Origin: Vulcanimicrobiota bacterium
GTDB taxonomy: Bacteria; Vulcanimicrobiota; Vulcanimicrobiia; Vulcanimicrobiales; Vulcanimicrobiaceae
Reading direction: 5' to 3'
DNA length: 64,000 bases
Assembly: GCA_963714015.1 (NCBI GenBank)
Contig: OY970223.1
Span: 1,856,001-1,920,000 of the forward strand
Positions 47,976 to 64,000 of this stretch are shown in pieces. How positions within the stretch are numbered: the stretch's first letter is position 1; every line of letters starts with the position of its first letter. Both the position numbers and the translations under genes were made by a program. The notes under the pieces were generated by a model that searched no databases, was not told the origin of the DNA, and saw only the letters and a program-made list of their open reading frames with translations.

Positions 47976-48794
47976 ATGCCGTTTGTCGACTTTCACACCC
48001 ACACGACGGTTTCGGACGGCGTGTGGCAGCCGCACGAACTCTTCGCGTACGTCCGCGAAAGCGGGATCGAAGCATTCTCGCTGACGGATCACGACACGAT
48101 GGACGGCTATCCGCTTCCGGCGGACATTGCGCCTCGTGCAGTGCCGGGAATGGAAGTCGACACCAAGTGCAACGGCGTCACCGCTCATCTGCTCGTTTAC
48201 GGAATCGATTCGCTGGAGGCGCCGCTGCTGCAGTTTCTGCGGCGGCAGCGCGCCGCGCGACGGGAACGAATGGCCGACATGCTCGAGAAGCTCGATGCTA
48301 AGGGCATTCATTTAGACATGTCGGACGTCGAGGCTCAGGCCGGTAAAGCGGTGAGCTGAGGCCGGCCCCATTTGGCGCGCGCTTTGGTCGCGCGAGGCGT
48401 CGTTAAGGATACGCAGGAGGCGTTCGACAAGTATCTCGCGGACGATCAAGAGGCGTACGTGTCGCTCGATCGGCTCGACTCTTGGCGCGCGATCGAACTG
48501 GCTCACGAGTCCCGGGCCGTCGTCAGCGTCGCCCACCCATGCCGGCTGCGGGAACCGGCGTCACTCGAAGTGTTGCGCTTGGCCGGCGTTGACGGAGTCG
48601 AAGTACTGCATCCCTCCGCAGATACCTCAGCGCAAGCGGAACTGCGCGAATACGCCGCGCGGCACGATCTGCTCGTAACGGGCGGCAGCGATTTCCATGC
48701 ACCGGACAAAGGCTACACGCCCGGCGTACAGCTCGAAGCAAACCATGTCGAGCGGCTATTCGCTGCTGTAGCAGCGGCAAGAATACCCGCTTAA
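47976..48794 (+). CDS. PHP-domain phosphoesterase with in-frame TGA at 48357-48359
   Basis: DFHTHTTVSDG, TDHD, GRPH, AHP, GGSDFH all in one frame. Confidence 0.85.
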
Positions 48795-51005
48795 TACCTT
48801 ACGGCCGAGCGGTCGGCCCCGGGCTTGGCGTCGGCACGATAAACGGCGACGGGTTCGGGCGCAGGCGCCGGAAGAGGCTGCGGCGACGGTGAAGCGCTGG
48901 GCGAGGGCGATGCCTTTGGCAACGGCGATGGTGAGGGTGATGCCTTGGGCGTCGCTGCGGATCGAGGCGTTGGACTCGGCCTCGGTGATGCAGTGGCTTT
49001 GGGAGACGCGCTCGGCGTCGGCTTGACGCTCGGTTTCGGCGACGGCGTTGCTGCGGGCGCCGATTTTGTTTGAACGGCCTTCATCATTGCGGGCCGCGGC
49101 GAGGTCGACGGCGATGCCTTCGGCGAGGGCGATGGTAAGGGTGATGCCTTGGGCGTCGCTCGCGGCCGGGGCGACGGACTCGGCTTCGGCGATGCAGCCG
49201 CTTTGGGCAGCGCGGTAGGCGTCGGCTTGACGTTCGGTTTCGGCGACGGCACTGCTGCAGGCGCCGATTTTGTTTGAACGGCCTTCATCATTGCGGGCCG
49301 CGGCGAGGACGAGGGCGATGCCTTTGGCAAAGGCGATGGTGAGGGTGATGCCTTCGGCGTTGCTGATGGTCGGGGCGACGGGCTCGGCTTGACGCTCGGT
49401 TTCGGCGACGGCATTGCTGCCGGCGCCGATTTTGTTTGAACGGCCTGCCGCGTTACGTTGGGCACTGCGGCGTGCTTAACGAGCGCGGCATTCGTGGCGT
49501 CGGGCTTTGCAGCCGGTGAAGTCGAGGCTGCCGGTTTGGGAGTCGCGACGGTCGTCGGTTTCGGCATTGGTGCCGGAGTCGGAATCGGCTTGGCAGGCAG
49601 AGCCGCCTTAGCCGGCTGACCCGCTGCCGCCCGAGCTGCCCTATGCCGCGGAGGCTTCGTAGGCAGAACCATCGGCGGAATCGCTTCGTACCGCGCGCCG
49701 CAGGCGCCGGGGGCGATGGTGAGCAGATCCGCTGCATAGAGCAGCACGTTTTCCCGATCCACCGACACGGCCGTCTGAGCAGTGAGCACGTCGCTGCGAC
49801 GCGTGTGCACGTCCAGAAACTCGGCTTCGGGTTTCTCTCGAACGTATGCGTACGTCGACTGAGCATTCCGCAGATCTTGCTGCCGTGCAGTGACGTCGGC
49901 GCCGGCTTGGTTGAGCAGGGTTTCCGCGCTCTTGATATTGTCCAAGTCCGCATCGATCGACGCGGCCAGTTCGAGCTTGCGCTGCGTCTGGCGATAGCCC
50001 AATGCTTTTAGTTCCTCGAGATACTGCGCGCGCAGCGCGCGCTCTTCGTCGCGGCCGTGCGTGGGCAGCGCTACGCTGACCCCGACGTCGAGGCGATAGC
50101 CCGAAACTTGCGCGTTGATATCGGTTGTGGATCCGATTTCGGCGATCGTGCTGGCCGTGATGGACGAGCCTTTCACGCGGGCGAGTTCTTCGTTTACCTG
50201 AATGTCTTCCGCAGCGATTCCGGCCATTTGGGGATCGACCGCGTATGCCGATTGCAGCGCGCGGTCGCGATCGGGAGCGCAGCGATCGAAGAACGAGGGT
50301 ATGGCGGGCTGAAATTGTCCCATCTCGTAGCCGACCGCCGAACTGACGTTGGCGAGTTCGGACCGCTGGAGCGCCCGCAGACTAGCGACGTTGAACTGCA
50401 CTTTCTGCACGGACGAATTTATGTCCATGAGATCCGTGCCGGTGAAGAACCCGGTATGAAGCAGCGAACGGCCGGTCGTGATGTCGGACTGAGAGGCGCC
50501 GACGTACGCCTCGCCTACCCGGGCCTGATCGTCATAGCTCCAATACTCCGTGTAAGCCTTTCGAAGCGCCGCTATCTTCGCGCGCTGTAGCTGGTTGAGC
50601 TGAATGACGGCCAGCTGCTCCTGTTCGGCCGCGTCGATAATGGCCAGCTGCTGCTCGATCTTGGAGCCGAGAAGCGGCAGCGAAAGTCCGCCGCCCTGAT
50701 CGTACCGGAGCACGTGGTAGTCGAACGTCCGCGGAACGATGACGGCGGCCGGACCGAAGTCTGTCCGAATATTCGTAGGCAAGACCCGCCCTGTCTTCCG
50801 TTGCGCGGAGCGCCTGGGCCTTGGCTTCGATGGTGCTCTCATCGCCGCGCACGTCCGGCGCGTTCGCAATTTGCGCTTCCAGCGAATTGAGTGTGATGGT
50901 CGCCCGCTGCGCAAAAACGAGCTCCGGTGTCAGGAGCAACAGGCTCGAAAGCACGGCCAAAACTAGGGGCGCTCGAAGTAAACGTCGCCATAGCAGCATT
51001 GGCAC
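48791..51005 (-). CDS. TolC/outer-membrane efflux-like protein with long Pro/Ser/Ala/Lys-rich tail; frameshift near 50765
   Basis: Signal peptide, long coiled-coil helices, two GxSxxLP-type barrel strands; divergent from an HlyD-like gene. Confidence 0.7.
48870..49460 (-). repeat. Three degenerate coding repeats (AVQTKSAPAAxPSPKP...ATPKASPSPSP)
   Basis: GCCGATTTTGTTTGAACGGCCT recurs at ~49059, ~49263 and ~49425. Confidence 0.85.
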
Positions 51006-51129: not shown

Positions 51130-52201
51130 ATGCGGCTACGTTCTTGGCGCGGCACCACGGTTGTAAGTCCCACACCGCGCCGCTCATTTCCATGGGTTCG
51201 GCTTCTGATTTTCGCGGCGGTGCTCGGCATCGCGGCTTATCTTATTATTCCGAACATCTACTACGTACGCGCGGACGCTCTCGTCCGGGGCGACTTGATA
51301 CCCGTGACGCCGGTCTACCGGGTCCGTGTCGACAAGCTGCTCGTTTCGTGCACGGATCGTGTCCACGCCGGCGAGCCGGTGGCGGTCATCAGCAACTTTT
51401 TGCTCCAGGCGGACTACACGCGGGAGTACCTGCAAGGGCTGCAGCAGTCGCAGATCGCCGGGATCGCGCTGGATCAGAACGTGGCGACGGCGCGTGAGAA
51501 CGCCGAGTCGCTCCATCAGCGCTACCTTCAGGCCGTTGCCGACGACCAGCGGCTGGAAGAGTCGTTCGGATCCTACGACAAGGCCTACAAAGCCGGCGCC
51601 ATTCCGCAGGTCGACTGGGCGGACAAGAAGGCCGAGATCGACGCATCCAAGGCCATGGTCCAAGCATCGCTTGACGCTTGGAAGCGGGCTCAACTGTTCG
51701 TCGCGCAAGTAACGGCTACGCAGACGACCAAGATCTCGTCCGACCAGGCACTCCTCCAGCAGGCGCAAACCGTTGCGAACCGCGTTGGGCAAGAGAAGTC
51801 TGTTCGCACCGGTAAGCGGTGACATCGTCGAGTGCATCGAGCGTCCGCAGAACGTCATTGAAGCGGGAACGCCGCTCTTCAGCATCTTCCAACCCGATCG
51901 CGCGTACATCGTTGCCTATTTTTCGCCGAACGCGGTCGCCAAGGTGCACATCGGACAGTCCGCCGACGTGAACATCGCCGGCCTCCCGAATAGCGTCAAG
52001 GGTCGCGTCGCCTGGATTTACCCCAACCTCGACGCGCTGCCGCCCGAGCTGACCCGGTTCTTCTGGCAGCACGTGCAGTTCTCGCAATACCGGCCGGTCA
52101 AGATCGCCCTCGACCGTCTGCCCGAATCGGACCGGAGCCAGCTCTACTACGACGCGCAGGCACGCGTGAGTATCAGCGTGTCCGGTCAGAAGCTGCAATG
52201 A
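51130..52201 (+). CDS. HlyD/membrane-fusion-like protein; frameshift near 51798
   Basis: N-terminal TM helix, lipoyl halves (DRVHAGEPV / FAPVSG), coiled-coil hairpin. Confidence 0.85.
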
Positions 52202-52830
52202 ACGGCGACAGCAATCAACGACTGCTCCAGGTTCTCGCGCTGGTTCCCAAGGATTCCCATCTGGATCCCCACTGGGAGCCGCGCGCGCCGGCCGGAGCCA
52301 CCTATGGGGACGCCGTTGCCGGCTTAGATCCGGACCAGGTCGCCCAGGACCTCGAGACCCTCGCTGACCGCGGCTATGCGGAACGGATATTCGTCGAACG
52401 CCTAATGATCTGTCCGTCCTGCTCGAGTCATGCGGTCAACGTTCACGAGTCGTGCGTCACTTGCAACTCGTCCAACCTCGAGTCGATCACGTCGTACTTC
52501 CATTTCCGCTGCGGTTTCATCGGACCGGAAAAGGCGTTTACGAAAGAACCCGCCGGCCTGCGCTGCCCCAAATGCAAGAAGTACCTGGTCGACGTGGGAA
52601 CCGATCACGATAGCCCTGGGGTCTTTTTCGAGTGCAAGAATTGCGCTGCGATGTTCCAGCAGCCGAATATGGGCGTGCGGTGCCTGGGATGCGGCGCGCG
52701 ATTCACCGGCCTGGCCCTGCAGGATCTCAAACACCGCGACGTCTACGCGTACCGGCTGCTGCTTCGCGGCCAAAATGCGCTCGCAAACGGAGCGCTGGAG
52801 ACCAGCGACCTGAATGCTCGATCTCTTTAA
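52198..52830 (+). CDS. TackOD1-like multi-zinc-ribbon protein
   Basis: CPSC, CVTC, HFRC, CPKC, CKNC, CLGC pattern with VGTDHD. Confidence 0.8.
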   Translation: MNGDSNQRLLQVLALVPKDSHLDPHWEPRAPAGATYGDAVAGLDPDQVAQDLETLADRGYAERIFVERLMICPSCSSHAVNVHESCVTCNSSNLESITSYFHFRCGFIGPEKAFTKEPAGLRCPKCKKYLVDVGTDHDSPGVFFECKNCAAMFQQPNMGVRCLGCGARFTGLALQDLKHRDVYAYRLLLRGQNALANGALETSDLNARSL

Positions 52831-54114
52831 TCGGTTACTGACAAGCCTCGACAACTTCTACATTTGGAACGCGTTCCTCGCCGTTCCGCACCTGCTGTAC
52901 AGCACGAGTCTGATCTTCTGGCTCGTCGTGTTCCTGGTTGTGCGCTTCGAAACTCCTAACTTCGCGTTGTACGTCGCCTACTTGGTGAATCGTAAGGCAT
53001 TCGAGCCGCCGCCCCTGCGGCGTTTCGCGAACAATCAGCCGCTGATCTCGTTTCTTATCGCCGGACGCAACCCGGGCGCGAGCATCATCTCGTGCATCGA
53101 ATCGATTCTGGCGAGCAACTACAAAAACATCGAGATCATCTTTGCCGACGACAAGTCCACCGACAATAGCGTCGAGCTGGCGCGCAAATTCGAGTCTTCC
53201 GGCAAAGTCCGCGTCGTCGCGAATGCCAACCACAGCGGAAAAGCCGCCGGGCTCAATCTGGCGCTGATGTTCGCTCGCGGAGAGTTCGTTTTCATCCTCG
53301 ACGCCGACAGCTGGTGTTTCCCGACACCGTCGACAATATGCTGCCGTATTTCGAGGACCCGAAGGTCGGCGGCGTCTCACCGAGCATTTTCTGCCGCAAT
53401 CCGTTCGATAGTTTCTGGACGCGGTGCCAGCAGATCGAATACGTCATGGCGTACGTCATGAACCAGCTCTGGCGCGACAAACTCGGAGTCATCGCCACCC
53501 TCTCCGGAATGGGGACGCTCTTCCGGATGGAGGCCATCAAGCACATCGGCGGCTGGGACATGGGATTGGGCGACGACACGGACAGTACGATCCGGTTGCG
53601 CAAAACGCATTGGACGCTGCACACTTCGCTGCGCGGGCATATCCTGACCGAATGTCCCAAGACGCTCAGCCATCTCTGGAGCCAGCGTTCGAGGTGGACC
53701 CGCAACATGGTCAAACAGCGGATGCGTAAGCACCGCGATTTGGGGACGTTCCGCTACGGGTTCAGGAACGGCCTGATGTTCTGGGACATGACGTTCAATC
53801 GCATCGTCCACCCGTATCTGCTGGTGGGGCTGCCGCTGCTCGCCTTCTTTCTGAAGACTCCCGACATTCCGGTCATAGCGGGCGGACTGTACGCCTTTAC
53901 GACCATCATTTTTACGCTCGAATTGCTGATGGCCCGCGATATGACGCGGCGCGATCCCTCGATGCAGAATTTTCTGCTGATGCCAATCTACGTTCTCTAT
54001 CGCATTCCGCTGCTGACCGTTCGGCTCGTTCAGATTACCCGCGAGCTGCTGATGATCAAGCCATGGCATCCCTACGTTCCACGCCGGGTGTGGGACGCGA
54101 TCCCGTTCCACTAG
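52814..54114 (+). CDS. Processive GT2 polysaccharide synthase; frameshift near 53313
   Basis: DDKSTD, GKAAGLN, DAD, GDD, QRSRW motifs with N- and C-terminal TM helices. Confidence 0.9.
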
Positions 54115-54151: not shown

Positions 54152-55465
54152 CTAAGGCGAGGTGATCGAGAACAGCGCGTTGCCGTTGCTGCGAATGTTC
54201 AGGACGCCGTTTGGAGCATACGACCGGATATCCGTGGCGAACGCCTGGTACGTCGGTGACGTTGAAATCGAGTCGTACTGGAACGACTGATTGTTGTCTT
54301 CGTACCATGAGATTGCGTGAAGGTGCGGATACGGCGTGTTCGGCGAGGTCAGTACCGAGAACATCGCGTCGATCCACGCAGCCTTCATGGCACCGCCGTC
54401 GCCATATTCGTTTGAGGCGGTTTCCGTGACCATAATCGGCTTGTTTTCGGTAGCTTTGATCGCGTAGTTGTACGCGCCGCCCATCATGAACGTGAACGCG
54501 TACCACCTGCGTCCATTGTTGTAGCTGCCCATGTTGTAGCCGTCCAGCGCAACCCAGTCAACGTAGGAGTCGCCGGGGTATGCTGCCGGAGGCTCGTTCC
54601 ACGATTCGACCGGGCTCGTGCCGCTGTTGAAGCACCAGATGAACTTCACGTTCGAGGCGCCTACTTGACGGAAGATCGTGACGACATGCTGCCAAGCCGC
54701 GATAAAGTTGGCGTCTGCAACCGGCCCCGCGCCGTTCTGCGGTAGTCCCCATGCATACCGCGTCGTGTTGAACTCGTGGAAGAGCCGGATGAACACGGGC
54801 TGTCCGAACGCCTTCAGCGTCTGTGCGGAAGCGGTGATGTACGAGTCATAATCGCCGGCCGCGATCCCGGCAAGCGTAACCGTCGAATGAGCCGACTGTG
54901 CCTGCCACGTGATGTCGGGGATCGTATTTTGAGCCTCCATCGCCGCCAGCGCGTTCTGAGAGATGACGTTCGTCATTGCCTCGTCCCACGTCGAGTACAC
55001 CGTGCCGATCGCTATCCCGTGCCGCATGACGGAGGGAAAGTTTGTGCACGTAAGTGCAGCCCACAGGCCGCAATCGGCGCCAAGGAAAATGCCGGACGTG
55101 GAGTTACTTGGGTCCGGTAATATCGGCAAACCGTTGGGGTTGAATGTCGGCACCGGGCTAGGCGTGGGGCTCGGCGCATTCGTCGGCCAGGGTGTGCCGG
55201 TGGGCCAGGGTGTGCCGGTCGGCCAGGGGGTGCCGGTGGGCCGGGGGGTGCTCGTCGGCCACGGGCTGCCGGTGGGCCGCCAGTTCGGTGTAGAAGTCGG
55301 GGAGGGGCTCGGCGTGGTGCTCGGACGCGCCGATGGGAAACTTTGGCCAAGGCCGGCCGTCGATGCGCCTCCGGTGCTGGGGATACCGGCTCCGCCGCCG
55401 CCGCATGCGGTCAGAATCGTTGCGGCCAGGGCTAGGGTCAATACACTTCTCGTCTGTCTGCTCAC
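54152..55465 (-). CDS. GH26-like glycoside hydrolase lipoprotein with Pro/Thr linker
   Basis: LTAC lipobox; [31 protein letters not shown]. Confidence 0.88.
55182..55277 (-). repeat. 18-bp tandem coding repeat (PTGTPW, ~5 copies)
   Basis: GT(C/G)GGCCAGGGTGTGCCG units on the + strand. Confidence 0.9.
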
Positions 55466-55600: not shown

Positions 55601-56329
55601 TTAGACGCCGACGCAAACCTCGTATTTCGAACACTCTTGCTTGAAGATTTCCTTTGCCTTGGCGTAGAGCTCGACGTCTTGCGCTCGATACTTGTTGACC
55701 AGTCTGCGCACCTCGTCGCTTACTTCGAAGGCGCCGCCAACGCGCTTGGTTACGTTGGCAAAACGCGGCGGTCCAAGGTCGTGCCGGAACCGCGCCTTGA
55801 AGAGTTCCCAGCTCTTCTCGTATTCCTCGTAGAGGCCGACGAAGGCGAATTCTTCGATGGGAACGCTGCCCACGAACTGCGATTGGTGATCGTGGTAGAA
55901 CAGCCACTTGAAGTGTTCTTCGAGCGTGGGGCGCAGCTCTTGCCAGTAACGGACCTCAGCGTGAACCTCCTTGTTCGCATCGCTCTTGCGATCGGTCAGC
56001 GCGCTTTGCCAGCGCCAGTGCGAAATCGACTGCTGCGCCGGTTCGCGCACGAACGTGACGTATTCGGCTTGCGGGAAGAGACCCACGTACTTGTCTGCGC
56101 AAAAATGTCCGTGTATGACATCGTAATTCTCGAGCAGCTCTTCGCGCCGAGCGCGCATTGCAGCCATCCGCAGGTCGCGGCGGCGGTTGGCGAACGGCTC
56201 GTCGAAACCGACCCAGTCCCCGTAGTCGCGGAAGACGCGCTCGACGTCGTATGCATCCATCAAGGCCTCACGAAACGAATTTCCGGCGGTCTTGGGGATG
56301 TGGATTGAAAGTAACATAGGCTCGTTCAA
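55601..56329 (-). CDS. PAPS-dependent sulfotransferase (Sulfotransfer_2-like)
   Basis: HIPKTAGNS 5'-PSB loop, GHF, TFVREP...S 3'-PB motif, D..LY. Confidence 0.88.
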   Translation of the reverse strand: MNEPMLLSIHIPKTAGNSFREALMDAYDVERVFRDYGDWVGFDEPFANRRRDLRMAAMRARREELLENYDVIHGHFCADKYVGLFPQAEYVTFVREPAQQSISHWRWQSALTDRKSDANKEVHAEVRYWQELRPTLEEHFKWLFYHDHQSQFVGSVPIEEFAFVGLYEEYEKSWELFKARFRHDLGPPRFANVTKRVGGAFEVSDEVRRLVNKYRAQDVELYAKAKEIFKQECSKYEVCVGV

Positions 56330-56347: not shown

Positions 56348-57373
56348 TTATGGTACGGGCTGCGCCCCGGCATTCGTCGCTTCCGCGGCGCGGAGAGCGC
56401 CGGTCAAAGCTGTTCGGATGATTGCGTCGATCTCCAGGTAGCGCGGCTGCCACCCCAGCGTGCGATTTGCAAGCGATGCATCGGCAACGAGAACCGGCGG
56501 ATCGCCTTCGCGGCGAGGTCCGGCGCCGTGCGGGACCCGGCGGGCGGCGACGCGTTCGACGCTGCTCAAAAGTTCTTTGACGGACGTGCCGCGACCGGTT
56601 CCCAGATTGAGCGTGAGAACGCCGGCGTTGTTCTCGAGGTGCTTGAGCGCGAGCATGTGCGCTTCGGCCAAATCGTCGACGTGGATGTAGTCGCGAATGC
56701 AGGTTCCGTCGGGCGTGTTGAAGTCATCGCCGAAAATCGTAAACGGTTTTCCGCCCAATGCGGCGCGAATAGCCAGCGGAATAGCGTGGGTTTCGGGATC
56801 GTGCAGCTCGTAAAGATCGTGCGTCTCGCTGCTTCCGGCGGCGTTGAAGTAGCGCAGCAGCGCGAAACTCATTCCGTAGGCGGCGGCAAAGTCGCGCATC
56901 ACGTGCTCGATCATCAGTTTGGAACGGCCGTAAGGATTGATAGGCCGTTCGTCCATGGTTTCGTCGAGGTGCTTGCCCTCGGGCGGTATGCCGTACGTCG
57001 CGCACGTTGAAGAGAACACGACGCGCCGCACGCCGCTATCGCGAAGCGCGGTGAGCAGCCGGCACGTTTGAACCACGTTGTTTTCGTAATACAGACCCGG
57101 ATCGACGACCGATTCTCCGACTGCGGCGAACGCCGCAAAATGGACGACGCCGGTTACGTTGTGGCGGCGCACCGTATCGCGGATCGCTTCGACGTCTCCG
57201 ACGTCGGCGCGAACCAGTTTGCCGGTGGGAACGAACGTCCCGTTAGAACGGCTGAGGTTGTCCACGACGACGTACGGAACGCCGCGATCCTGAAGAAGGG
57301 CGGCGAAGTGCGACCCGATGTAGCCGGCCCCTCCCGTGACTAGGAGCGAGCCGCCCAGGTACGCGTTTTCCAT
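56348..57373 (-). CDS. galE: UDP-glucose 4-epimerase
   Basis: TGGAGYIGSH, YGRSK, LRYFNAAG, DGTCIRDYIHV. Confidence 0.96.
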   Translation of the reverse strand: MENAYLGGSLLVTGGAGYIGSHFAALLQDRGVPYVVVDNLSRSNGTFVPTGKLVRADVGDVEAIRDTVRRHNVTGVVHFAAFAAVGESVVDPGLYYENNVVQTCRLLTALRDSGVRRVVFSSTCATYGIPPEGKHLDETMDERPINPYGRSKLMIEHVMRDFAAAYGMSFALLRYFNAAGSSETHDLYELHDPETHAIPLAIRAALGGKPFTIFGDDFNTPDGTCIRDYIHVDDLAEAHMLALKHLENNAGVLTLNLGTGRGTSVKELLSSVERVAARRVPHGAGPRREGDPPVLVADASLANRTLGWQPRYLEIDAIIRTALTGALRAAEATNAGAQPVP

Positions 57374-57379
57374 GTTCGC

Positions 57380-59041
57380 TTAAGCCCCCGAGGAGAGCCC
57401 CGAAACGATCCGCGCGAGCACCTCGTGGGTTGCGGCGTCCATTCCAAAGAACTCCAAATGATACTGGTACCAGCCGTTGTCGGCGATGCGGTGGTCTACC
57501 ACCCGCGCCTGGAGCACGACTTCGTCCGTGACGCTCGCTCCATGCACGTGCGGAGCCTTGAACCGGACTTCAACACGCGAGCCGATGGGCAGCATGTCAT
57601 CGGCGGCCATGAGCAATCCGCCGGCCGAGATGTTTTTCATACGAGCGGAGCGGCGCGCCGAGATCGACGTCTGATACGTCATGGCCAAGTCGGTGCCGAT
57701 GCGCACGCTGGAGCGCGCGTCGGTTTCGGCGGAATCCCATGAAACCGAACTAATGAGCAGCGCACCGCTAGTGCGGTGGCTCGAGGGATCGACGACGATC
57801 ATCGAACCCGCGGTACGGTTCGTCTGGTAAAGGTCGACCGGAAGCGCTTCCTGCGTTTCGAAGGTGACGTAACCGATCTCGTTTACTTCGAGCGCGTGCG
57901 CAGCAGTGCGGTCGAGCGTGTGAATGTCCAGGCAGCTCTCGATGCTGACGATGCGTCCTTGAATCCAGCGCGAGCCGTGACGGATCCAGTACTTGCGGCC
58001 AATCTGCGCGGGTTCGGTGTCCATCCACGCAAGTGCAGCGGAGAAACGCTGCGTGCTGCGTACAGTGTGCGGCGTCGATATCCAGTTTCCGCGCGCCACG
58101 TCCACGTGGCGATCGAGGACGAGTCCGGCCGATTCGCCCGCTTGAACGATTTCCACGCGGTCGCCGGCGCGCCGCACTTCGACTACCGTTGCAGATTCGT
58201 TGCTCGGGAATATCTGCACGCTATCGCCGCGCTGCACGCTGCCGCCGCAGACCCGTCCCCACACGACGCGGGTATGGTTGCTGCCCGTAGCGGGATCGCG
58301 CGAGACGTATTGCACCGGCATGAGGAAATTGCCGTCTTTGGTGCCGTCCTCTTCGACCGGAAGACATTCGAGCAATTCGAGAAGCGTCGGCCCGGTATAC
58401 CAGTCCAATCCGCCGCGCGTCGTTACGTTGTCGCCGTTCAGCGCGGAGATCGGCACGATTGCCCGCACCGGAATTCCGGCGGCGCCGCTGAGCTGCAGCA
58501 GCGCTTCGCAGACGGCCTCAAAGCCTTCACGCTGGTTGGGAATAGCGTCGATCTTATTGACGGCGAACACGATGCTCGGGATGCGCAAGAGGTGCGCGAG
58601 AAGCGTATGGCGGCGCGTTTGAGCGAGCAGCGTAACGGGACGTTTGCTCACATCGAGTTTCGTGATGTCGACCAGCACCACGGCCGCGTCGCTTCCGGTG
58701 GCCGCCGTAACCATGTTCCGCGTGTACTGTTCGTGCCCCGGCGCGTCCGCGATGATGAACTTGCGCTGGCGCGTCGAAAAATAACGGTACGCGACGTCGA
58801 TGGTGATGCCTTGCTCGCGCTCGGCCTCCAATCCGTCGGTCAGCAGCGCGAGATCGATCTCCTGACCGTTACTGCTCAAACGGCCAAGCTGATCCGCTAG
58901 AATCGCTTGACATTCGTACAACAATCGGCCCGTGAGAGTGCTCTTCCCGTCGTCCACGCTCCCGGCCATCAGAAACCGCAACGCGCGGTCTTCGCCCGGA
59001 CGGTTGTTGCCGGCGGGGACAGCGTTCATCATAACCACCAT
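57380..59041 (-). CDS. cysN: Sulfate adenylyltransferase large subunit fused to a C-terminal PilZ domain
   Basis: GSVDDGKST, EREQGITID, DAPGHEQY, NKID; last ~110 aa carry RSSVR...NISAGG. Confidence 0.93.
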   Translation of the reverse strand: MVVMMNAVPAGNNRPGEDRALRFLMAGSVDDGKSTLTGRLLYECQAILADQLGRLSSNGQEIDLALLTDGLEAEREQGITIDVAYRYFSTRQRKFIIADAPGHEQYTRNMVTAATGSDAAVVLVDITKLDVSKRPVTLLAQTRRHTLLAHLLRIPSIVFAVNKIDAIPNQREGFEAVCEALLQLSGAAGIPVRAIVPISALNGDNVTTRGGLDWYTGPTLLELLECLPVEEDGTKDGNFLMPVQYVSRDPATGSNHTRVVWGRVCGGSVQRGDSVQIFPSNESATVVEVRRAGDRVEIVQAGESAGLVLDRHVDVARGNWISTPHTVRSTQRFSAALAWMDTEPAQIGRKYWIRHGSRWIQGRIVSIESCLDIHTLDRTAAHALEVNEIGYVTFETQEALPVDLYQTNRTAGSMIVVDPSSHRTSGALLISSVSWDSAETDARSSVRIGTDLAMTYQTSISARRSARMKNISAGGLLMAADDMLPIGSRVEVRFKAPHVHGASVTDEVVLQARVVDHRIADNGWYQYHLEFFGMDAATHEVLARIVSGLSSGA

Positions 59042-59044
59042 TGA

Positions 59045-60003
59045 TTAGAAATAGCCTTCGAGTTTGCGCCGCTCCATTGAAGCTTCGGAGGTGCTGTCGT
59101 CCATACGCGTAGCGCCGCGTTCGCTGACAGTCACCGAAACGGTCTCGGCGATGATTTCCTGCGGAGTCGAAGCGAAGCTCTCGACACGGGACAGGTGCAC
59201 GTCATGTCACCAACGGTGCGGAATCTCACGGAGACGCTTTCAGGCCGTTCGAGCGGCTGAAGCGGTGTAATATCCGTGATCGGCACGAGAAGATCGCGCC
59301 GGCGCACGACCGGACGCATGTGCGAGTAGTAGAGAGAGGGCAGCGCAATTTCTTCGCGGGCGATATAGAGCCACACGTCCAACTCGGTCCAGTTCGAGAT
59401 CGGGAACGCGCGCATATGTTCGCCCGGGCGAACGCGCGTGTTGAAGAGCGTCCACAACTCGGGGCGCTGCTCTTTGGGCCGCCATTGTCCGAAACGATCG
59501 CGATGCGAGAAGATGCGCTCTTTTGCGCGAGCCTTTTCTTCGTCGCGGCGCGCGCCGCCGATCAGCACGTCGAAGCGATGCTCCTCGATCGTTTCGAGCA
59601 GCGTCACTGACTGATGGCTGTTGCGGCTTTCGAGCGGATGCGAAAGGCGAACCGTTCCGCGCTCGATGGAATCCTGAAGGCTGCCCACGATGAGGCGTTC
59701 TCCGGTTTCCGCGACGCACCAGTCGCGGAATTCGATTACTTCCGGGAAATTATGACCCGTGTCAATGTGCACGAGCGGGAACGGCAGCGTTCCGCGATAG
59801 GTACCGTCGGCATCGCGGTGCTTGAACGCCTTTTCCGCAAGGCGAAGCACGACGCATGAATCTTTGCCGCCGGAGAACAACAGTGCGGGCCGTTCGAAAG
59901 CACCCGCGACTTCGCGCAGGATGAAAATCGCCTCTTCCTCGAGCCAATCGAGATGGCGAACGTTAAGCGGCGAAGTCTGCTCAACAGTAAGAGCTGCGTC
60001 CAT
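59045..60003 (-). CDS. cysD: Sulfate adenylyltransferase small subunit; frameshift near 59180
   Basis: FSGGKDS, HIDTGHNF, GGARRDEEKARAKER; other frame ends SERGATRMDD...MERRKLEGYF. Confidence 0.96.
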
Positions 60004-60346: not shown

Positions 60347-60375
60347 TTGACACTTCACGGCGCGATTGATATCGT
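60347..60375 (+). promoter_or_regulatory. Sigma70-type promoter for tauE-cysC
   Basis: TTGACA-17 nt-TATCGT with extended TG. Confidence 0.6.
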
Positions 60376-60460
60376 AGCCGCACGAAGCCCCAAACGGGTT
60401 TTGCCGCTCGTATCTGCGGCGTTTACGGCAGATGCGGGCCACGGTTTCCGTAGGGAGCAC

Positions 60461-61240
60461 ATGAACGCAGAGCTCATTGCCATAGGATTTGTGGTAGGGA
60501 TCCTCGTCGGCCTCACCGGTGTGGGTGGAGGCAGCATTATGACGCCGCTCCTGATTGCGCTGAACATTCCGCCGCTGGCCGCGGTCGGAACCGACCTGTT
60601 GTACAGCGCCCCCACGAAGGTCTTTGGAGCCTATCTGCACCATCGTCAGCGAACCGTGAATTGGCGGCTGGTGGGTGCCTTGACGACCGGCGGCGTACCG
60701 GCCGCCATCGTGGGCGCACTAACGCTGGTATGGTTGCGCGGCCATGTCGCCCTGAGCGTGCTGCAGAGTTTCACGAAGCACGCGGTGGGCGCGGCGCTCG
60801 TCATTTCCGCGGTCATCATCATGGTGACGCCCTGGCTGCTCAAGGGTCAGGATCGGACCTCCGGCAACATCGAGTGGAATCGGGCCAGGCGTTGGAAGAC
60901 CATCACGATCGGTGCCGCGGTCGGCCTCATCGTGACGGTGACCTCCATCGGCAGCGGTTCGGTCACGCTTCCGATGCTCGCTCTGGTCTTGCCCGCAGCG
61001 GGCCTACAAACATTGGTAGGAACGGATATCGCTTTTGCCGCAATTCTCATACCAACCGCATTTCTGAGCCGGTGGTCGATGGGCGGCGGCGTCAACATTC
61101 CGCTCGCGGTCAACCTGATCGTCGGGTCCATGCCCGGGGTCTTCATCGGTACGAAGCTGTGCGGATTTCTCCAGCAGCGTTACCTGCGTCCCGCACTCGC
61201 TTTGACGCTCGTGGTCGTGGGCGCGCGAATGGTCGTCTAA
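60461..61240 (+). CDS. TauE/SafE (TSUP) sulfur-compound transporter
   Basis: GLTGVGGGSIMTP, AVGTDL, SIGSGS, LVGTD; GGAG RBS. Confidence 0.92.
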   Translation: MNAELIAIGFVVGILVGLTGVGGGSIMTPLLIALNIPPLAAVGTDLLYSAPTKVFGAYLHHRQRTVNWRLVGALTTGGVPAAIVGALTLVWLRGHVALSVLQSFTKHAVGAALVISAVIIMVTPWLLKGQDRTSGNIEWNRARRWKTITIGAAVGLIVTVTSIGSGSVTLPMLALVLPAAGLQTLVGTDIAFAAILIPTAFLSRWSMGGGVNIPLAVNLIVGSMPGVFIGTKLCGFLQQRYLRPALALTLVVVGARMVV

Positions 61241-61260: not shown

Positions 61261-61809
61261 TTGAAACGAGGATTCACCGTTTGGCTCACCGGCATGTCCG
61301 GCGCGGGCAAGAGTTCGATTTCCGAAAGACTCGCTGCAGAACTCGCCGCCCGCGGTGAGAGCGTCGAAGTGCTCGACGGCGACGAGGTCCGTACGCACCT
61401 TTCAAAGGGCCTGGGTTTCAGTCGCGAGGACCGCGACGTCAACATCGGCCGCATCGCGTTCGTCGCCTCGCTGCTGGTCAAGCACGGCGCCGCCGTCATT
61501 ACCGCCGCAATCTCGCCCTATGCTCAGGCCCGTGAAGCGGCGCGGAAGCAGATTGGCGACTTTCTCGAGGTCTACGTCCGCTGCTCGATTGAGGAACTCG
61601 CGCGTCGCGACGTCAAAGGCCTTTACAAGAAGGCAATCGCCGGCGAGATCGGTCAGTTCACCGGAATCTCCGATGAGTATGAGGCACCGCAAAATCCGAA
61701 CGTGACGGTCGATACGGAGTTGGAAACGATCGAAGAGAGCGTCTCCAAGATCATCGCGGCGCTGGAGGAGCGCGGGTACTTGCGGGCGGGCGAGCAAGCC
61801 CGCACCTAA
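61261..61809 (+). CDS. cysC: Adenylyl-sulfate kinase
   Basis: WLTGMSGAGKS, LDGDEVR, RDVKGLY, FTGISDEYEAP. Confidence 0.97.
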   Translation: MKRGFTVWLTGMSGAGKSSISERLAAELAARGESVEVLDGDEVRTHLSKGLGFSREDRDVNIGRIAFVASLLVKHGAAVITAAISPYAQAREAARKQIGDFLEVYVRCSIEELARRDVKGLYKKAIAGEIGQFTGISDEYEAPQNPNVTVDTELETIEESVSKIIAALEERGYLRAGEQART

Positions 61810-61931: not shown

Positions 61932-62912
61932 CTACTGTTTGCACGCGCCGAGTTTGTTGCTCCACAACGGCTGCGTCGGGAACGTTCCGGTGGAGAACTT
62001 CGTGTTTTGCAGATCCTGCCAAGCGCACGCGTCGCCAATCTCTCCGAGCGGTCCGTTCCAGCCGCTAAAGGGCTGCGGATCGGTCTCGGTCTCGCCCTGT
62101 TCGTGTCCTTCGACGATCGACACGCCGTCATCGGTTCCGGGACTGTTCACCGAACCGGCGCCGCACGCTTGACCGGGATCGGGCATGTACGGCAAATTGG
62201 TGAACGCGATCGGGTTGCCGTTCTCGGTCTCATTGCTGTGCCACGCGCAGTATTCCGTACCGAAACCTGCCGGCAGGATGCCGTGCGGCATCGCAACGAC
62301 GTAGCTGGCGCTGTTCGTGTAGTCGCCGAAGTGTTTGGCAGCGCGCGCGGCTTCTGCGCCGATTTGCCCGTCGGTCGGCGACTGCGGCGGTTGATTCGCA
62401 CTATCCACATAAGCTCCGGCAAGGGTGGTAGTGTTCTTGATGAACGTCTTGACAGGTCCGTAGTACTGCGTGAGGGTGCCGGTCCATTGACTCCCATTCA
62501 GTCCCTTGGTAAACGTCCTGAGCACTTTTTGGACTCCGTCGGGATCGCCGCTCTTGCTGCTCCACGCCTTGCCCCAGAACACGATGTACATCTTTGGGCT
62601 GGCCTGAATCGGGCCGCCGCCGTAATTCAGATTGTCCGATTTCGACGGCGCGATGAGGCCCAGCGTTTGTGCGCGCGCGTAATCCTGACGCGTCGGAAAA
62701 TACGACGCCGTCATGCCGTTGTCGAGCACTTTGGTGAAGACGCTTTGCGTCGTACGCGCCGACGGAACGATGCGCCCGCCGCCTACCGACGACGGAAGAT
62801 TTTGCGTTTGCGGAATTGCGGCGCTGTGTTGGCCGCAAGCTGCCAGCATCGACGCAGCCGCCGCGAGCGCGGCAAATTTGGTCACTCTATGCACGAAGAA
62901 AAACCCCTTCAA
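61932..62912 (-). CDS. Lipoprotein with PHI-1/EXORDIUM-like domain
   Basis: LAAC lipobox; YGGGP, YCAWH, HEQGETETDP, EIGDAC. Confidence 0.7.
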   Translation of the reverse strand: MKGFFFVHRVTKFAALAAAASMLAACGQHSAAIPQTQNLPSSVGGGRIVPSARTTQSVFTKVLDNGMTASYFPTRQDYARAQTLGLIAPSKSDNLNYGGGPIQASPKMYIVFWGKAWSSKSGDPDGVQKVLRTFTKGLNGSQWTGTLTQYYGPVKTFIKNTTTLAGAYVDSANQPPQSPTDGQIGAEAARAAKHFGDYTNSASYVVAMPHGILPAGFGTEYCAWHSNETENGNPIAFTNLPYMPDPGQACGAGSVNSPGTDDGVSIVEGHEQGETETDPQPFSGWNGPLGEIGDACAWQDLQNTKFSTGTFPTQPLWSNKLGACKQ

Positions 62913-62988: not shown

Positions 62989-63207
62989 TTACACTATAGC
63001 CTTTCGGACACGCTTTGCGTTCGCGTGAGAGTGATGCAAACTCTGCGTTACTGTGCCGTTACCGAGTCCGGGTGCGGGTGCCGGAGCGACGGGAGCTTGT
63101 GCGGCACTGTGCGGAAGAGGTTGAACCGCACCACCGCCGGCGCATGCCGCCAGCATCGCGGACATCGTAGCCGCTGCGGCGATTTTGGAAATTCTCCGCA
63201 CGAACAT
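62989..63207 (-). CDS. Small lipoprotein (possibly a truncated paralog N-terminus)
   Basis: Signal ...SAMLAAC resembles that of 61932-62912. Confidence 0.55.
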   Translation of the reverse strand: MFVRRISKIAAAATMSAMLAACAGGGAVQPLPHSAAQAPVAPAPAPGLGNGTVTQSLHHSHANAKRVRKAIV

Positions 63208-63297
63208 CCCCCATTTGAAAAGAGCGCAGCATTTTCTTATCGAGCGTTACGCTTGATGCCGCGCGCTCCCTCGCACTTCTGTTAGTCCATATGTACT

Positions 63298-63331
63298 AAA
63301 AAAGAGGCCCCGCCGCGAAGGCGAGGCCTTT
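63298..63331 (-). terminator. Intrinsic terminator
   Basis: GC hairpin with GCGAA loop and an A run on the + strand. Confidence 0.7.
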
Positions 63332-63354
63332 CGTACTCACGCTTTGATTCGTCG

Positions 63355-64000
63355 TTACTGAACGCAGCCGTTATTCTTGTTGCTCCAGAGCGGCTGAGTC
63401 GGGTAAGTGCCGTTGGTGAACGCCGTGTTTTGAAGGTTTTCCCACGCGCACTTGTCGCCAATCTCTTGGCCGCTGGAATCGCACCAGCCGCTGCAGGGGC
63501 GGGGATCGGTTTCAGTCTCGGCTTGCTCGTGTCCGCCGACGATCGTGACGCCGTCGTTCGTTCCGGGGCTGTTGACTGAGCCTTGACCGCAGCTGAAATC
63601 CGGCGTCGGGCATGTACGGCAGATCGGTGTACTGAATCGTGCCGCCCGAGCCCGATTCGTCGTCGTGCCATGCGCACCACTGGTTGCCGAACGCGGTCGG
63701 ATCGTGTCCGTGCGGCAGCGCGACGACATAGCTGGCGCTCACCGAATAATTACGGAAATGCGAAGCGCCGCGCTTGGCTTCATTGCCTACAGCCGTATCC
63801 GAAGGATGCGTCGGCGGCGTGCTTCCCGTGTCGACCCACGTGCTTTGCAGAACGGTGTCGTCATTGATGTACGTTCCGCTCGGGCCGTAATACTGCGTCA
63901 TCGAGCTCGGCCAGCTCGCGCCGTTCCAACCGGCGTAGAATTGATCGAGCAGCGATTTGACGCCGTCCGGATCGCCGGAGGAACCGTTCCACGAGCTTCC
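63355..64000 (-). CDS. Second PHI-1/EXORDIUM-like protein; 5' end outside the window, frameshift near 63595
   Basis: WCAWH, LPYMPD, HEQAETETDP, EIGDKCAW, PTQPLWSN shared with the paralog. Confidence 0.75.

What the first reader, a model, noticed from the sequence alone, without database searches (positions are those of the whole stretch)
57380..59041. CysN-PilZ fusion: sulfate activation possibly gated by c-di-GMP
Seen: after a complete CysN, the same frame continues ~110 aa (~57395-57720) with RSSVR, then about 22 residues later NISAGG, followed by PIGSRVEVRF, ARVV and YHLEF. Established: RxxxR-(20-30)-[D/N]xSxxG is the PilZ c-di-GMP-binding signature, and the usual CysN C-terminal fusion partner is CysC (NodQ). 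In alginate and cellulose systems PilZ is on Alg44 or BcsA, whereas the GT2 and HlyD-like proteins here show no such motif. Inference: c-di-GMP controls the sulfate-donor step rather than the polymerase.
Basis: partly seen in the sequence, partly recalled or inferred. Interest (0 to 1): 0.92.

Follow-up and report, generated by a model that had tools for sequence, protein, structure and literature searches.

The report
CysN sulfate-activating GTPase fused to PilZ
A soil bacterium of the uncultured phylum Eremiobacterota carries a sulfate-activating enzyme subunit with a built-in sensor for the biofilm signal c-di-GMP, which suggests that the signal controls the supply of sulfate donor for a sulfated slime polysaccharide.

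Summary
ORF 57380-59041 (-), 553 aa, is a complete CysN (TIGR02034 416 bits, cut-off 336) that runs in frame into a canonical PilZ domain (PF07238 40.7 bits, cut-off 22.5). RSSVR and NISAGG lie 22 residues apart. The tail model (pLDDT 89) matches c-di-GMP-bound PilZ structures.

The fusion is not an assembly artefact. 21 non-redundant intact fusion proteins from other assemblies share it. Both arginines are kept in 21/21 and the serine in 20/21, although tail identity falls to 29%.

It is rare: 4 of 401 genomes of the phylum and 2 of 116 genera. It accounts for one of 140 hits among 1.84 billion representatives.

The gene sits in an operon-like row: cysD, cysN-PilZ, galE, a carbohydrate-type sulfotransferase and GH26. 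This row lies beside tauE-cysC and a GT2 synthase/HlyD/OEP export set. No Sat, sulfite reductase or CysH was found in the genome, so the PAPS made here most likely serves sulfation.

The best reading is c-di-GMP gating of PAPS supply for a sulfated exopolysaccharide. That function is inferred, not shown. I rate it a new variant of a known kind.

The parts
57380..59041 (-). cysN-PilZ gene, 553 aa
   Evidence: ORF. Pfam GTP_EFTU, D2, GTP-eEF1A_C and PilZ. TIGR02034 above its cut-off.
57755..58981 (-). CysN core (aa 21-429): GTPase domain plus domains II and III
   Evidence: G1, G3 and G4 motifs located and invariant in alignment A6.
57404..57715 (-). PilZ domain (aa 443-546)
   Evidence: PF07238 at 40.7 bits. 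AF2 model pLDDT 89, six strands plus a C-terminal helix. Foldseek top hits are Alg44, MotI, BcsA and YcgR PilZ domains bound to c-di-GMP.
57701..57715 (-). RxxxR motif (RSSVR, R443/R447)
   Evidence: Both arginines kept in 21 of 21 intact fusion proteins.
57617..57634 (-). [D/N]xSxxG motif (NISAGG, aa 470-475)
   Evidence: S472 kept in 20/21, G474 and G475 in 21/21. The identical NISAGG aligns with that of MotI/YpfA, PDB 5vx6.
59045..60003 (-). cysD (sulfate adenylyltransferase small subunit). The frame is broken near 59178 in this assembly. The TAA stop at 59045-59047 lies 3 nt before the cysN ATG.
   Evidence: PAPS_reduct 137.6 bits. NF003587 CysD 374 bits against a cut-off of 195. The conserved C-terminus is found in another frame. 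One contig of run X1 lacks 2 nt at 59178.
56348..57373 (-). galE (UDP-glucose 4-epimerase). It starts 6 nt after the cysN-PilZ stop.
   Evidence: TIGR01179 359 bits against a cut-off of 262. Epimerase domain.
55601..56329 (-). Predicted carbohydrate sulfotransferase (Sulfotransfer_2-like). It has no Pfam or NCBIfam hit of its own.
   Evidence: Atlas score 0.97 to Sulfotransfer_2 clusters. Profile hit to heparan sulfate 6-O-sulfotransferase 5t03, E 4.6e-6. AF2 pLDDT 85.5. Foldseek top hits are HS 6-O- and 2-O-sulfotransferases, TMq about 0.55.
54152..55465 (-). GH26-like lipoprotein (probable glycanase)
   Evidence: Glyco_hydro_26 37.6 bits.
52814..54114 (+). Processive GT2 synthase, with the frame broken near 53320-53340
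   Evidence: Glycos_transf_2 and Glyco_trans_2_3. PgaC/IcaA-like by NCBIfam, below cut-off. An intact 437-aa homologue from G172 aligns in frame +2 and then frame +1.
52198..52830 (+). TackOD1-domain protein directly upstream of the synthase
   Evidence: PF18551 136.6 bits.
51130..52180 (+). HlyD-type membrane-fusion protein, with the frame broken near 51750-51795
   Evidence: 52% identical to the HlyD protein of G162. That protein aligns in two frames of the window.
48791..50914 (-). OEP (TolC-like) family homologue with a Pro/Ser-rich tail
   Evidence: 43% identical over 483 aa to the G002 protein, which hits Pfam OEP. It has no direct Pfam hit of its own.
60347..61240 (+). TauE/SafE-family anion permease, divergent from cysD
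   Evidence: PF01925 149.9 bits.
61261..61809 (+). cysC (APS kinase), a separate gene. The TTG start at 61261 is proposed, not established.
   Evidence: APS_kinase 197.4 bits. Start candidate found.

Best explanation
The gene encodes the GTPase subunit (CysN) of the heterodimeric ATP sulfurylase CysDN. Its C-terminus, where many bacteria carry the APS kinase CysC, instead carries a canonical c-di-GMP-binding PilZ domain.

The gene is co-transcribed with cysD, galE and a carbohydrate sulfotransferase. It lies beside tauE-cysC and a synthase-type polysaccharide system (GT2 synthase, HlyD, OEP, GH26). The organism appears to have no assimilatory sulfate reduction, so the PAPS made here should feed sulfation of an exopolysaccharide.

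Proposed mechanism (inferred): at high c-di-GMP the RxxxR linker, which begins 13 residues after CysN domain III, and the PilZ barrel close around the ligand. This changes how the barrel sits against CysN or CysD. The costly GTP-coupled synthesis of APS and PAPS is thereby switched on, or less likely switched off, in step with biofilm matrix production.

Shown here: the fusion, the fold, the motifs and their conservation, and the gene context.
Inferred: ligand binding, and the sign and route of regulation.
For: Fusion and domains:
- Pfam and NCBIfam hits are above their cut-offs.
- The PilZ model has pLDDT 89. Its best structural matches are c-di-GMP-bound PilZ domains: Alg44 4rt1 (E 4e-6), MotI 5vx6 (TMq 0.73), BcsA and YcgR.
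- The best PDB sequence match is MotI/YpfA, E 4.8e-10, with RxxxR and NISAGG aligned.

Selection on the binding residues:
- In 21 non-redundant intact fusion proteins the tails are 29-84% identical to the window's, while the cores are 62-95% identical.
- R443, R447, G474 and G475 are kept in 21/21, and S472 in 20/21.

Fusion seen in independent assemblies:
- 17 of the best 120 hits carry a precomputed PF07238. Three more have intact tails by alignment.
- Same-genus genomes G001 and G002 have it.
- On a tree of CysN cores all 21 fusions fall on one side of a branch (SH-aLRT 83).

Context:
- The row is cysD, a 3-nt gap, cysN-PilZ, a 6-nt gap, galE, an 18-nt gap, then the sulfotransferase.
- The sulfotransferase assignment is supported.
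- The same gene kit is found in G001, G172 and G125.
- A sister locus in G162 has GH26, OEP, GT2, HlyD, sulfotransferase, TauE and CysD, but an ordinary CysN-CysC.

No assimilation route found in the genome's single contig: no Sat, no NIR_SIR sulfite reductase, and no PAPS_reduct match apart from the two cysD genes and one match below the family cut-off (19.3 bits) in a 530-aa frame.

c-di-GMP signalling exists in the genome: a GGDEF cyclase lies at 37007-38599, and 7-8 further PilZ matches lie elsewhere.
Against: - There is no biochemical evidence. No RNA run holding the stretch was listed.
- The sign of regulation is a guess by analogy with other c-di-GMP-activated polysaccharide systems.
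- One of the 21 fusions (P0176) has DLGMGG, with serine replaced by glycine.
- In G001 the TackOD1 gene lies on a different contig from cysN-PilZ. I did not search for G001's GT2 synthase. The link to this particular synthase may therefore not be fixed.
- Several genes of the locus have broken frames in this assembly: cysD, the GT2 synthase and HlyD. If the breaks are real, the system is decaying in this strain. Only the cysD break is contradicted, and only by a single contig at depth 2.2.
- Genome completeness is estimated at 89.6%, so the absences are not proof.
Confidence: 0.55

Rival explanations
1. Scaffold or localisation model. The PilZ binds c-di-GMP but does not change catalysis. Once bound, it docks CysDN onto the membrane synthase, the sulfotransferase or CysC, so that APS and PAPS are produced next to the growing polymer (channelling).
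For: - Several known PilZ proteins work by ligand-dependent partner binding. MapZ-CheR1 (5xly) and MotI are among the structural matches.
- The model has a C-terminal helix, residues 106-122 of the tail.
- Residues outside the ligand motifs are kept in the fusion clade: H517 in 20/21, Y527 and F531 in 21/21, and H528 in 20/21. This would fit a conserved contact surface.
Against: No partner is identified. The conserved extra residues could equally face CysN or CysD. In G001 the TackOD1 gene is on a different contig from cysN-PilZ.
Confidence: 0.2
2. The tail is a PilZ fold that no longer signals with c-di-GMP. It would bind nothing or another ligand, and serve as a structural cap or oligomerisation module replacing CysC.
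For: Non-binding PilZ domains exist; tetrameric Xanthomonas PilZ structures are among the weaker matches. The tail evolves faster than the core.
Against: Non-binding PilZ domains characteristically lack RxxxR and [D/N]xSxxG (my recollection of the family literature). Here both motifs are kept in 20-21 of 21 sequences down to 29% tail identity.
Confidence: 0.1
3. The system serves cysteine biosynthesis, with c-di-GMP tuning sulfur assimilation rather than polysaccharide sulfation.
For: CysDN is classically an assimilatory enzyme. A serine acetyltransferase gene lies at 34081-34764.
Against: - No sulfite reductase, no Sat and no clear CysH-type match were found. The only extra PAPS_reduct match scores 19.3 bits, below the cut-off.
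- The gene is flanked by galE and a carbohydrate-type sulfotransferase.
- The genome's second cysD-cysNC set also lies in a sugar-modification and sulfotransferase cluster.
Confidence: 0.08
4. Assembly artefact: two separate genes were joined by an indel error.
For: This assembly does contain frame breaks: cysD, the GT2 synthase, HlyD, and cysNC at the second locus.
Against: The same continuous architecture occurs in 20 other non-redundant proteins from ENA, JGI, NCBI and Logan assemblies, and in G001, G002 and G125. The contigs of run X1 laid on the gene report no indel in it, though their cover is patchy.
Confidence: 0.02

Closest known systems
CysNC / NodQ (bifunctional sulfate adenylyltransferase subunit 1 / APS kinase)
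   Same: It has the same CysN core, with an extra domain attached at the same point, right after domain III. Other genera of the same family carry this form.
   Different: The appended domain is a PilZ receptor, not an APS kinase. CysC is a separate gene at 61261-61809. The core is only 30-37% identical to the family's CysNC in most genera (42% in G004). It is 64-68% identical over the aligned core, in the listed rows, to stand-alone CysN of about 425-435 aa; the rows that carry a source name are Burkholderiales.
PilZ receptors of synthase-dependent exopolysaccharide systems (BcsA of cellulose synthase, Alg44 of alginate)
   Same: A canonical PilZ domain sits inside a polysaccharide locus. Alg44 and BcsA PilZ domains are the top structural matches.
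   Different: Here the PilZ is neither on the synthase nor on the membrane-fusion co-polymerase. It is on the enzyme that makes the sulfate donor, so a modification step rather than polymerisation would be the controlled step.
MotI / YpfA (DgrA) of Bacillus subtilis, PDB 5vx6
   Same: It is the best sequence match among solved structures (E 4.8e-10), with aligned RxxxR and an identical NISAGG.
   Different: MotI is a stand-alone two-domain PilZ protein that acts on the flagellar stator. It has no enzymatic partner domain.
Synechan (xss) sulfated exopolysaccharide cluster of Synechocystis (PMC8205485; I saw the abstract and passages only)
   Same: It is a bacterial sulfated exopolysaccharide locus with dedicated sulfotransferases.
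   Different: In the passages I saw, c-di-GMP appears only in the reference list and PAPS is not mentioned. That system is cyanobacterial. Its abstract states that cyanobacteria are unique among bacteria in making sulfated extracellular polysaccharides, and this locus would be a predicted exception.

Membership tests
PilZ domain (PF07238), canonical c-di-GMP-binding type | Profile match above the curated threshold over most of the domain | tested here: met
   40.7 bits against 22.5, profile positions 3-100 of 102. The genome-wide scan gives 44.1 bits at the same place.
PilZ domain (PF07238), canonical c-di-GMP-binding type | RxxxR motif in the N-terminal linker | tested here: met
   RSSVR at aa 443-447. 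Both arginines kept in 21/21 fusion proteins and invariant in 27 aligned PilZ sequences.
PilZ domain (PF07238), canonical c-di-GMP-binding type | [D/N]xSxxG motif 20-30 residues downstream | tested here: met
   NISAGG at aa 470-475, 22 residues after R447. Serine kept in 20/21, both glycines in 21/21.
PilZ domain (PF07238), canonical c-di-GMP-binding type | Six-stranded beta-barrel fold | tested here: met
   This rests on a predicted model only: pLDDT 89, six strands plus one helix. 34 PDB matches at E <= 0.001, and the listed ones are PilZ domains.
PilZ domain (PF07238), canonical c-di-GMP-binding type | Binds c-di-GMP | not testable with these tools
   Needs DRaCALA, ITC or MST on purified protein.
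CysN (TIGR02034, sulfate adenylyltransferase large subunit) | Family profile above the curated cut-off | tested here: met
   416.2 bits against 336.1, residues 21-429.
CysN (TIGR02034, sulfate adenylyltransferase large subunit) | Intact GTPase motifs G1, G3 and G4 | tested here: met
   GSVDDGKST, DAPGH and NKID located and invariant in A6.
CysN (TIGR02034, sulfate adenylyltransferase large subunit) | Partner subunit CysD encoded alongside | tested here: met
   cysD ends 3 nt upstream of the cysN start. Its frame is broken near 59178 in this assembly, but one X1 contig lacks the 2 extra nt there.
CysN (TIGR02034, sulfate adenylyltransferase large subunit) | GTP hydrolysis coupled to APS synthesis | not testable with these tools
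   Needs an enzyme assay.
CysNC / NodQ bifunctional enzyme | APS kinase domain on the same polypeptide | tested here: not met
   No PF01583 in this ORF. NF004035 scores 432.8 bits against a cut-off of 715 and covers only model positions 22-441 of 632.
Synthase-borne c-di-GMP receptor (BcsA- or Alg44-type) | PilZ on the glycosyltransferase or on its membrane-fusion partner | tested here: not met
   The GT2 and HlyD-like ORFs give no PilZ hit at E <= 0.001. The only PilZ match inside the window is the CysN tail.

The most novel reading that the evidence does not exclude
c-di-GMP acts directly as an allosteric switch on a G-protein-coupled ATP sulfurylase. Sulfate activation, and hence sulfation of the biofilm matrix, would then be a second-messenger output of its own, separate from polymer synthesis. 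The lineage would have built this switch by acquiring a cysDN pair whose closest listed stand-alone relatives with a source name are from Burkholderiales, and grafting one of its own PilZ domains onto the site where CysC normally sits.
Probability: 0.4. Interest if true: 0.78.

Novelty: new variant of a known kind. Interest (0 to 1): 0.62.

Why it matters
Known c-di-GMP receptors in polysaccharide systems act on polymerisation or on transcription. A receptor built into the enzyme that makes the sulfate donor would add a new controlled step, chemical modification of the matrix, and a new class of regulated enzyme, a translational-type GTPase coupled to a metabolic reaction.

It also predicts sulfated exopolysaccharides in Eremiobacterota, a phylum known to me only from metagenomes. 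The one paper I consulted describes sulfated extracellular polysaccharides as a cyanobacterial speciality among bacteria (PMC8205485, abstract).

The prediction is cheap to test. Two soluble proteins and a commercially available ligand are enough.

Tried and rejected
- Complex prediction. I submitted CysD (aa 1-274), the CysN core (aa 1-430), the PilZ tail as partner, and two c-di-GMP. The result was no verdict (score 0.00, mark 0.32) and the controls were not run. It says nothing either way about whether the tail docks on CysN or CysD.
- Scans of genome contigs and metagenome contigs with the four-tail alignment. Patterns matched 108 and 247 stretches, but none was confirmed by tblastn. No extra loci came from there.
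- Earlier findings of this scan, by place, words and sequence: nothing.
- Sequencing runs: no RNA holder listed. One DNA run, X1 (Logan contigs), held 25% of the sampled words. X2 and X3 held next to none.
- Laid contigs. Cover over the gene was patchy, and the longest listed piece on the gene was 270 nt. They do not bridge the CysN/PilZ junction in the pieces shown, and they do not cover the GT2 break (bin 53324-53654 has depth 0).
- I first took a 606-aa ORF of G001 (L028:5847-7667) for a TackOD1-GT2 fusion. It is a PQQ-like beta-propeller.
- The 403-aa 'TackOD1' ORF of G094 aligns with window 51805-52812. That stretch overlaps the other-frame C-terminal half of HlyD, so its N-terminal part is probably an over-extended ORF. 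I did not use it.
- The G094 fragment (C24, 63% identity over aa 16-167, open frame 211 aa) was not resolved and is not counted as a fusion.
- Literature searches found no description of the fusion: 'CysN'+'PilZ' (10 papers), 'PilZ domain'+'sulfate adenylyltransferase' (6 papers), 'PilZ'+'sulfurylase' (7 papers), 'c-di-GMP'+'sulfated exopolysaccharide'+'sulfotransferase' (2 papers), 'Eremiobacterota'+'c-di-GMP' (2 papers). I judged these from the listings only, except for passages of PMC8205485. Subscription journals and domain-architecture databases (InterPro, CDART) could not be searched, so the architecture may already be catalogued there.
Full report
**1. The observation**

The minus-strand ORF 57380-59041 is open for 553 codons. 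Pfam finds the three CysN/EF-Tu-type domains: GTP_EFTU at 21-222, domain 2 at 258-310, and GTP-eEF1A_C at 332-427. It also finds a PilZ domain at residues 443-546, scoring 40.7 bits against a gathering threshold of 22.5 and covering profile positions 3-100 of 102. The last 120 residues alone score 44.7 bits. NCBIfam's CysN model TIGR02034 is passed with 416.2 bits against 336.1, over residues 21-429.

RSSVR is at 443-447 and NISAGG at 470-475, 22 residues further on. PIGSRVEVRF, ARVV and YHLEF follow.

**2. Is the tail a real, ligand-competent PilZ?**

- A profile built from 27 tails and stand-alone PilZ proteins finds B. subtilis MotI/YpfA (PDB 5vx6) as its best solved relative, E 4.8e-10. 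RxxxR and an identical NISAGG are aligned.
- An AlphaFold2 model of the tail has mean pLDDT 89 and pTM 0.79, with six strands and a C-terminal helix.
- Foldseek against the PDB returns 34 matches at E <= 0.001. The top ones are PilZ domains crystallised with c-di-GMP: Alg44, MotI, BcsA, YcgR, MapZ and MrkH.

Fold and motifs are therefore those of the canonical, binding class. Binding itself cannot be tested here.

**3. Is the fusion real?**

This assembly has frame breaks (see section 8), so the question is fair. A search of 5.8 billion proteins with the whole protein returned 120 best hits out of 7,990 passing. Among them 17 proteins of 525-561 aa carry a precomputed PF07238. Three more (P0146-P0148) have intact tails by alignment, and one (P0152) has a frame-broken tail. 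They come from ENA, JGI, NCBI and Logan assemblies.

The two other species of the same genus held here, G001 and G002, encode the fusion too. Their tails are only 37-38% identical to the window's, and Pfam PilZ scores 36-47 bits.

I took 21 non-redundant intact fusions, window included. P0152 was dropped as broken, and the G125 row was dropped because it is identical in the tail to P0146. In these:
- Tail identity to the window runs from 84% down to 29%, while the CysN core stays at 62-95%.
- R443, R447, G474 and G475 are kept in 21/21.
- S472 is kept in 20/21. P0176 reads DLGMGG instead.

The tail evolves faster than the core, but the ligand-contacting residues do not move. This is the pattern expected for a working receptor. 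Further residues outside the classical motifs are also fixed (G487, H517, Y527, H528, F531). They may mark a contact surface.

**4. How common is it?**

- A profile of four tails, run against 1.84 billion 50%-identity representatives, gave 140 hits at E <= 0.001. Only P0001, the cluster of the window's protein, is a CysN-PilZ. The one other hit of the right length (P0071) is a receiver-PilZ protein.
- In 401 genomes sampled across the phylum, 4 have a full-length match at E <= 1e-120: G000, G001, G002 and G125, which is 2 of 116 genera. G125 is flagged unpublished, and this count includes it.
- In 151 genomes of the family, the remaining CysN matches are mostly 30-37% identical (G004, 42%), in open frames mostly of about 615-680 aa. 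One of them was confirmed as CysN-CysC by Pfam.
- Two further partial matches were not counted: G172, cut by its contig end at residue 262, and a fragment in G094.
- Source names on homologous proteins read 'Candidatus Baltobacteraceae', 'Candidatus Aquilonibacter' and 'Candidatus Eremiobacteraeota'. The lineage is therefore Eremiobacterota.

**5. Origin**

The CysN core is 64-68% identical over the aligned core, in the listed rows, to stand-alone CysN proteins of about 425-435 aa. The rows that carry a source name are Burkholderiales: Piscinibacter, Rhizobacter, Caldimonas and Aquabacterium. Those proteins end exactly where the linker begins, at '...TSGALLVK'. The adjacent CysD is 76-81% identical to the listed CysD rows outside the Eremiobacterota; the named ones are Caldimonas, Schlegelella and Ideonella.

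I built a quick maximum-likelihood tree from 56 rows: all 21 fusions, 28 of the 57 short CysN rows, and 7 family CysNC rows as outgroup. It puts all fusions on one side of a branch (SH-aLRT 83, not starred). They lie next to the short proteobacterial-type group (95) and far from the family's own CysNC (99).

This fits a single fusion event on a cysDN pair related to that of Burkholderiales. The short rows were chosen by similarity to the query, however, so the tree shows no donor or direction.

**6. Context**

On the minus strand the genes follow each other closely:
- cysD, with its stop at 59045-59047
- 3 nt, then cysN-PilZ (59041-57380)
- 6 nt, then galE (57373-56348; TIGR01179 359 bits against 262)
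- 18 nt, then a 242-aa protein (56329-55601)
- 135 nt, then a GH26-like lipoprotein

The 242-aa protein has no Pfam or NCBIfam hit. Four results point to a sulfotransferase:
- The protein atlas places it with Sulfotransfer_2 clusters, score 0.97.
- A 13-sequence profile hits heparan sulfate 6-O-sulfotransferase 5t03, E 4.6e-6.
- Its model has pLDDT 85.5.
- That model matches PAPS-dependent sulfotransferases, best the carbohydrate 6-O- and 2-O-enzymes, at a moderate TMq of about 0.55.

Divergently transcribed are a TauE-family permease and a separate CysC.

Upstream lie:
- a processive GT2 synthase, PgaC/BcsA-like
- a TackOD1-domain gene
- a HlyD-type protein
- a homologue of an OEP (TolC-like) protein

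The sulfotransferase, TauE, CysC, CysD and CysN(-PilZ) recur in G172, there with an intact GT2 synthase. G001 has the sulfotransferase, GalE, several GH26 paralogues, CysN-PilZ and CysC; its cysD was read. G125 (unpublished) has TauE, CysC, CysD and CysN-PilZ, with a part of the sulfotransferase gene at its contig start.

In G162 the same kind of locus (GH26, OEP, GT2, HlyD, sulfotransferase, TauE, CysD) carries an ordinary CysN-CysC. This gives a natural comparison of the two C-terminal partners.

**7. What the PAPS is for**

The one-contig genome gave no match to ATP-sulfurylase Sat (PF01747) and none to sulfite/nitrite reductase (PF01077). PAPS_reduct matches only the two cysD genes, plus one match below the family cut-off (19.3 bits) in a 530-aa frame. 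The control genomes rang in all three searches.

The second cysD-cysNC set (G000:C1:2817382-2820016) also lies among sugar-modification genes and another sulfotransferase-like gene.

Estimated completeness is 89.6%, so absence is not proven. Still, the simplest reading is that sulfate activation in this organism feeds sulfation and not cysteine synthesis.

**8. Quality of the assembly**

Four genes show frame breaks against intact relatives:
- cysD near 59178: the conserved C-terminus '...ERGATRMDD...EGYF' is in another frame
- the GT2 synthase near 53320-53340
- HlyD near 51750-51795
- cysNC at the second locus

One contig of run X1, nearly identical to the window elsewhere, lacks 2 nt at 59178, which restores cysD. 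It is a single contig at depth 2.2, so this is weak support.

Together with 89.6% completeness for a single-contig genome, I read these breaks as probable consensus indel errors. The three sites not covered could still be real lesions. The cysN-PilZ frame itself is intact, and no indel was reported in it.

**9. Mechanism**

Shown: a CysN whose domain III runs into a short conserved linker, with an aromatic-acidic pair at 435-436. After this linker comes the RxxxR motif and a PilZ barrel.

Established for PilZ proteins (my knowledge of the family, not a call): the RxxxR linker wraps around c-di-GMP and pulls the barrel against the neighbouring domain.

Inferred: ligand binding repositions the barrel on CysN or CysD. 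This changes the GTPase-coupled synthesis of APS, so that PAPS is made when c-di-GMP is high and the matrix polymer is being produced. PAPS costs two ATP and one GTP per molecule.

I put the parts at these odds:
- real fusion: about 0.97
- c-di-GMP binding: about 0.8
- control of PAPS supply for polysaccharide sulfation: about 0.55
- activation rather than inhibition: about two to one

A tethering role without allostery is the main rival, at 0.2.

**10. Verdict**

This is a genuine, conserved and narrowly distributed CysN-PilZ fusion in a predicted sulfated-exopolysaccharide locus of Eremiobacterota. I found no description of it in five literature searches, judged from listings only. Domain-architecture databases could not be checked.

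It is a new variant of a known kind: a PilZ receptor on a new enzyme partner and a new controlled step. The functional claim remains an inference from architecture and context.

Noticed in passing
window 59170-59185 (cysD 3' part): The cysD frame breaks after '...TCPVS', and the conserved C-terminal 40-odd residues continue in another frame up to the TAA at 59045-59047. A single low-depth contig of run X1 lacks 2 nt at 59178, which would restore the frame.
   Followed up: partly
window 53320-53340 (GT2 synthase) and 51750-51795 (HlyD-type gene): Both genes align to intact relatives in two successive frames. These are either consensus indel errors or real lesions of the polysaccharide machinery. 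The laid contigs do not cover either site.
   Followed up: partly
G000:C1:2817382-2820016 (outside the window): A second cysD plus cysN-cysC set, with a frame break inside cysN. It sits next to a TauE-like gene, an aminotransferase, a nucleotidyltransferase and another sulfotransferase-like gene. This looks like a second sulfation cluster.
   Followed up: partly
window 52198-52830 (+): A TackOD1-domain gene (a Cys-rich domain of obscure function per PMC5847659, passages read). It overlaps the start of the GT2 synthase by 17 nt. TackOD1 also lies within about 1.5 kb of the sulfotransferase homologue in G002 (C281) and G094 (C2); in G094 an intact GT2 synthase lies between them. It is a candidate regulatory partner of the synthase.
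   Followed up: partly
window 57380-60003 versus P0159-P0259 and P0264-P0379: CysN and CysD are much closer to stand-alone homologues whose source-named rows are Burkholderiales (64-68% and 76-81%) than to the family's own CysNC (mostly 30-37%). This suggests lateral transfer of cysDN before the PilZ was added.
   Followed up: partly
whole genome G000: No Sat, no sulfite reductase, and no PAPS_reduct match apart from the two cysD genes and one match below the cut-off. The organism may be unable to assimilate sulfate.
   Followed up: partly
L030:3035-4402 (G125, unpublished) and L031:7112-8515 (G172): In genus g56, a regulator with AA_kinase, ACT and Trans_reg_C (winged-helix) domains lies between cysC and cysD. 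It has no counterpart at that position in the window.
   Followed up: no
window 37007-38599 (-): A 7TMR-DISM sensor diguanylate cyclase (GGDEF, 141.6 bits) lies about 19 kb from the fusion gene. It is a possible but unlinked source of the signal.
   Followed up: no
window 61932-62912 (-), 62989-64000 (-); L028 and L029 of G001: Runs of paralogous lipoproteins with Cys-containing signal peptides and no family assignment flank the sulfation genes. G001 has five to six GH26-like paralogues in a row.
   Followed up: no
window 20756-21157 (-): A 133-aa fragment with an integrase core domain (rve), probably a remnant of an insertion sequence.
   Followed up: no
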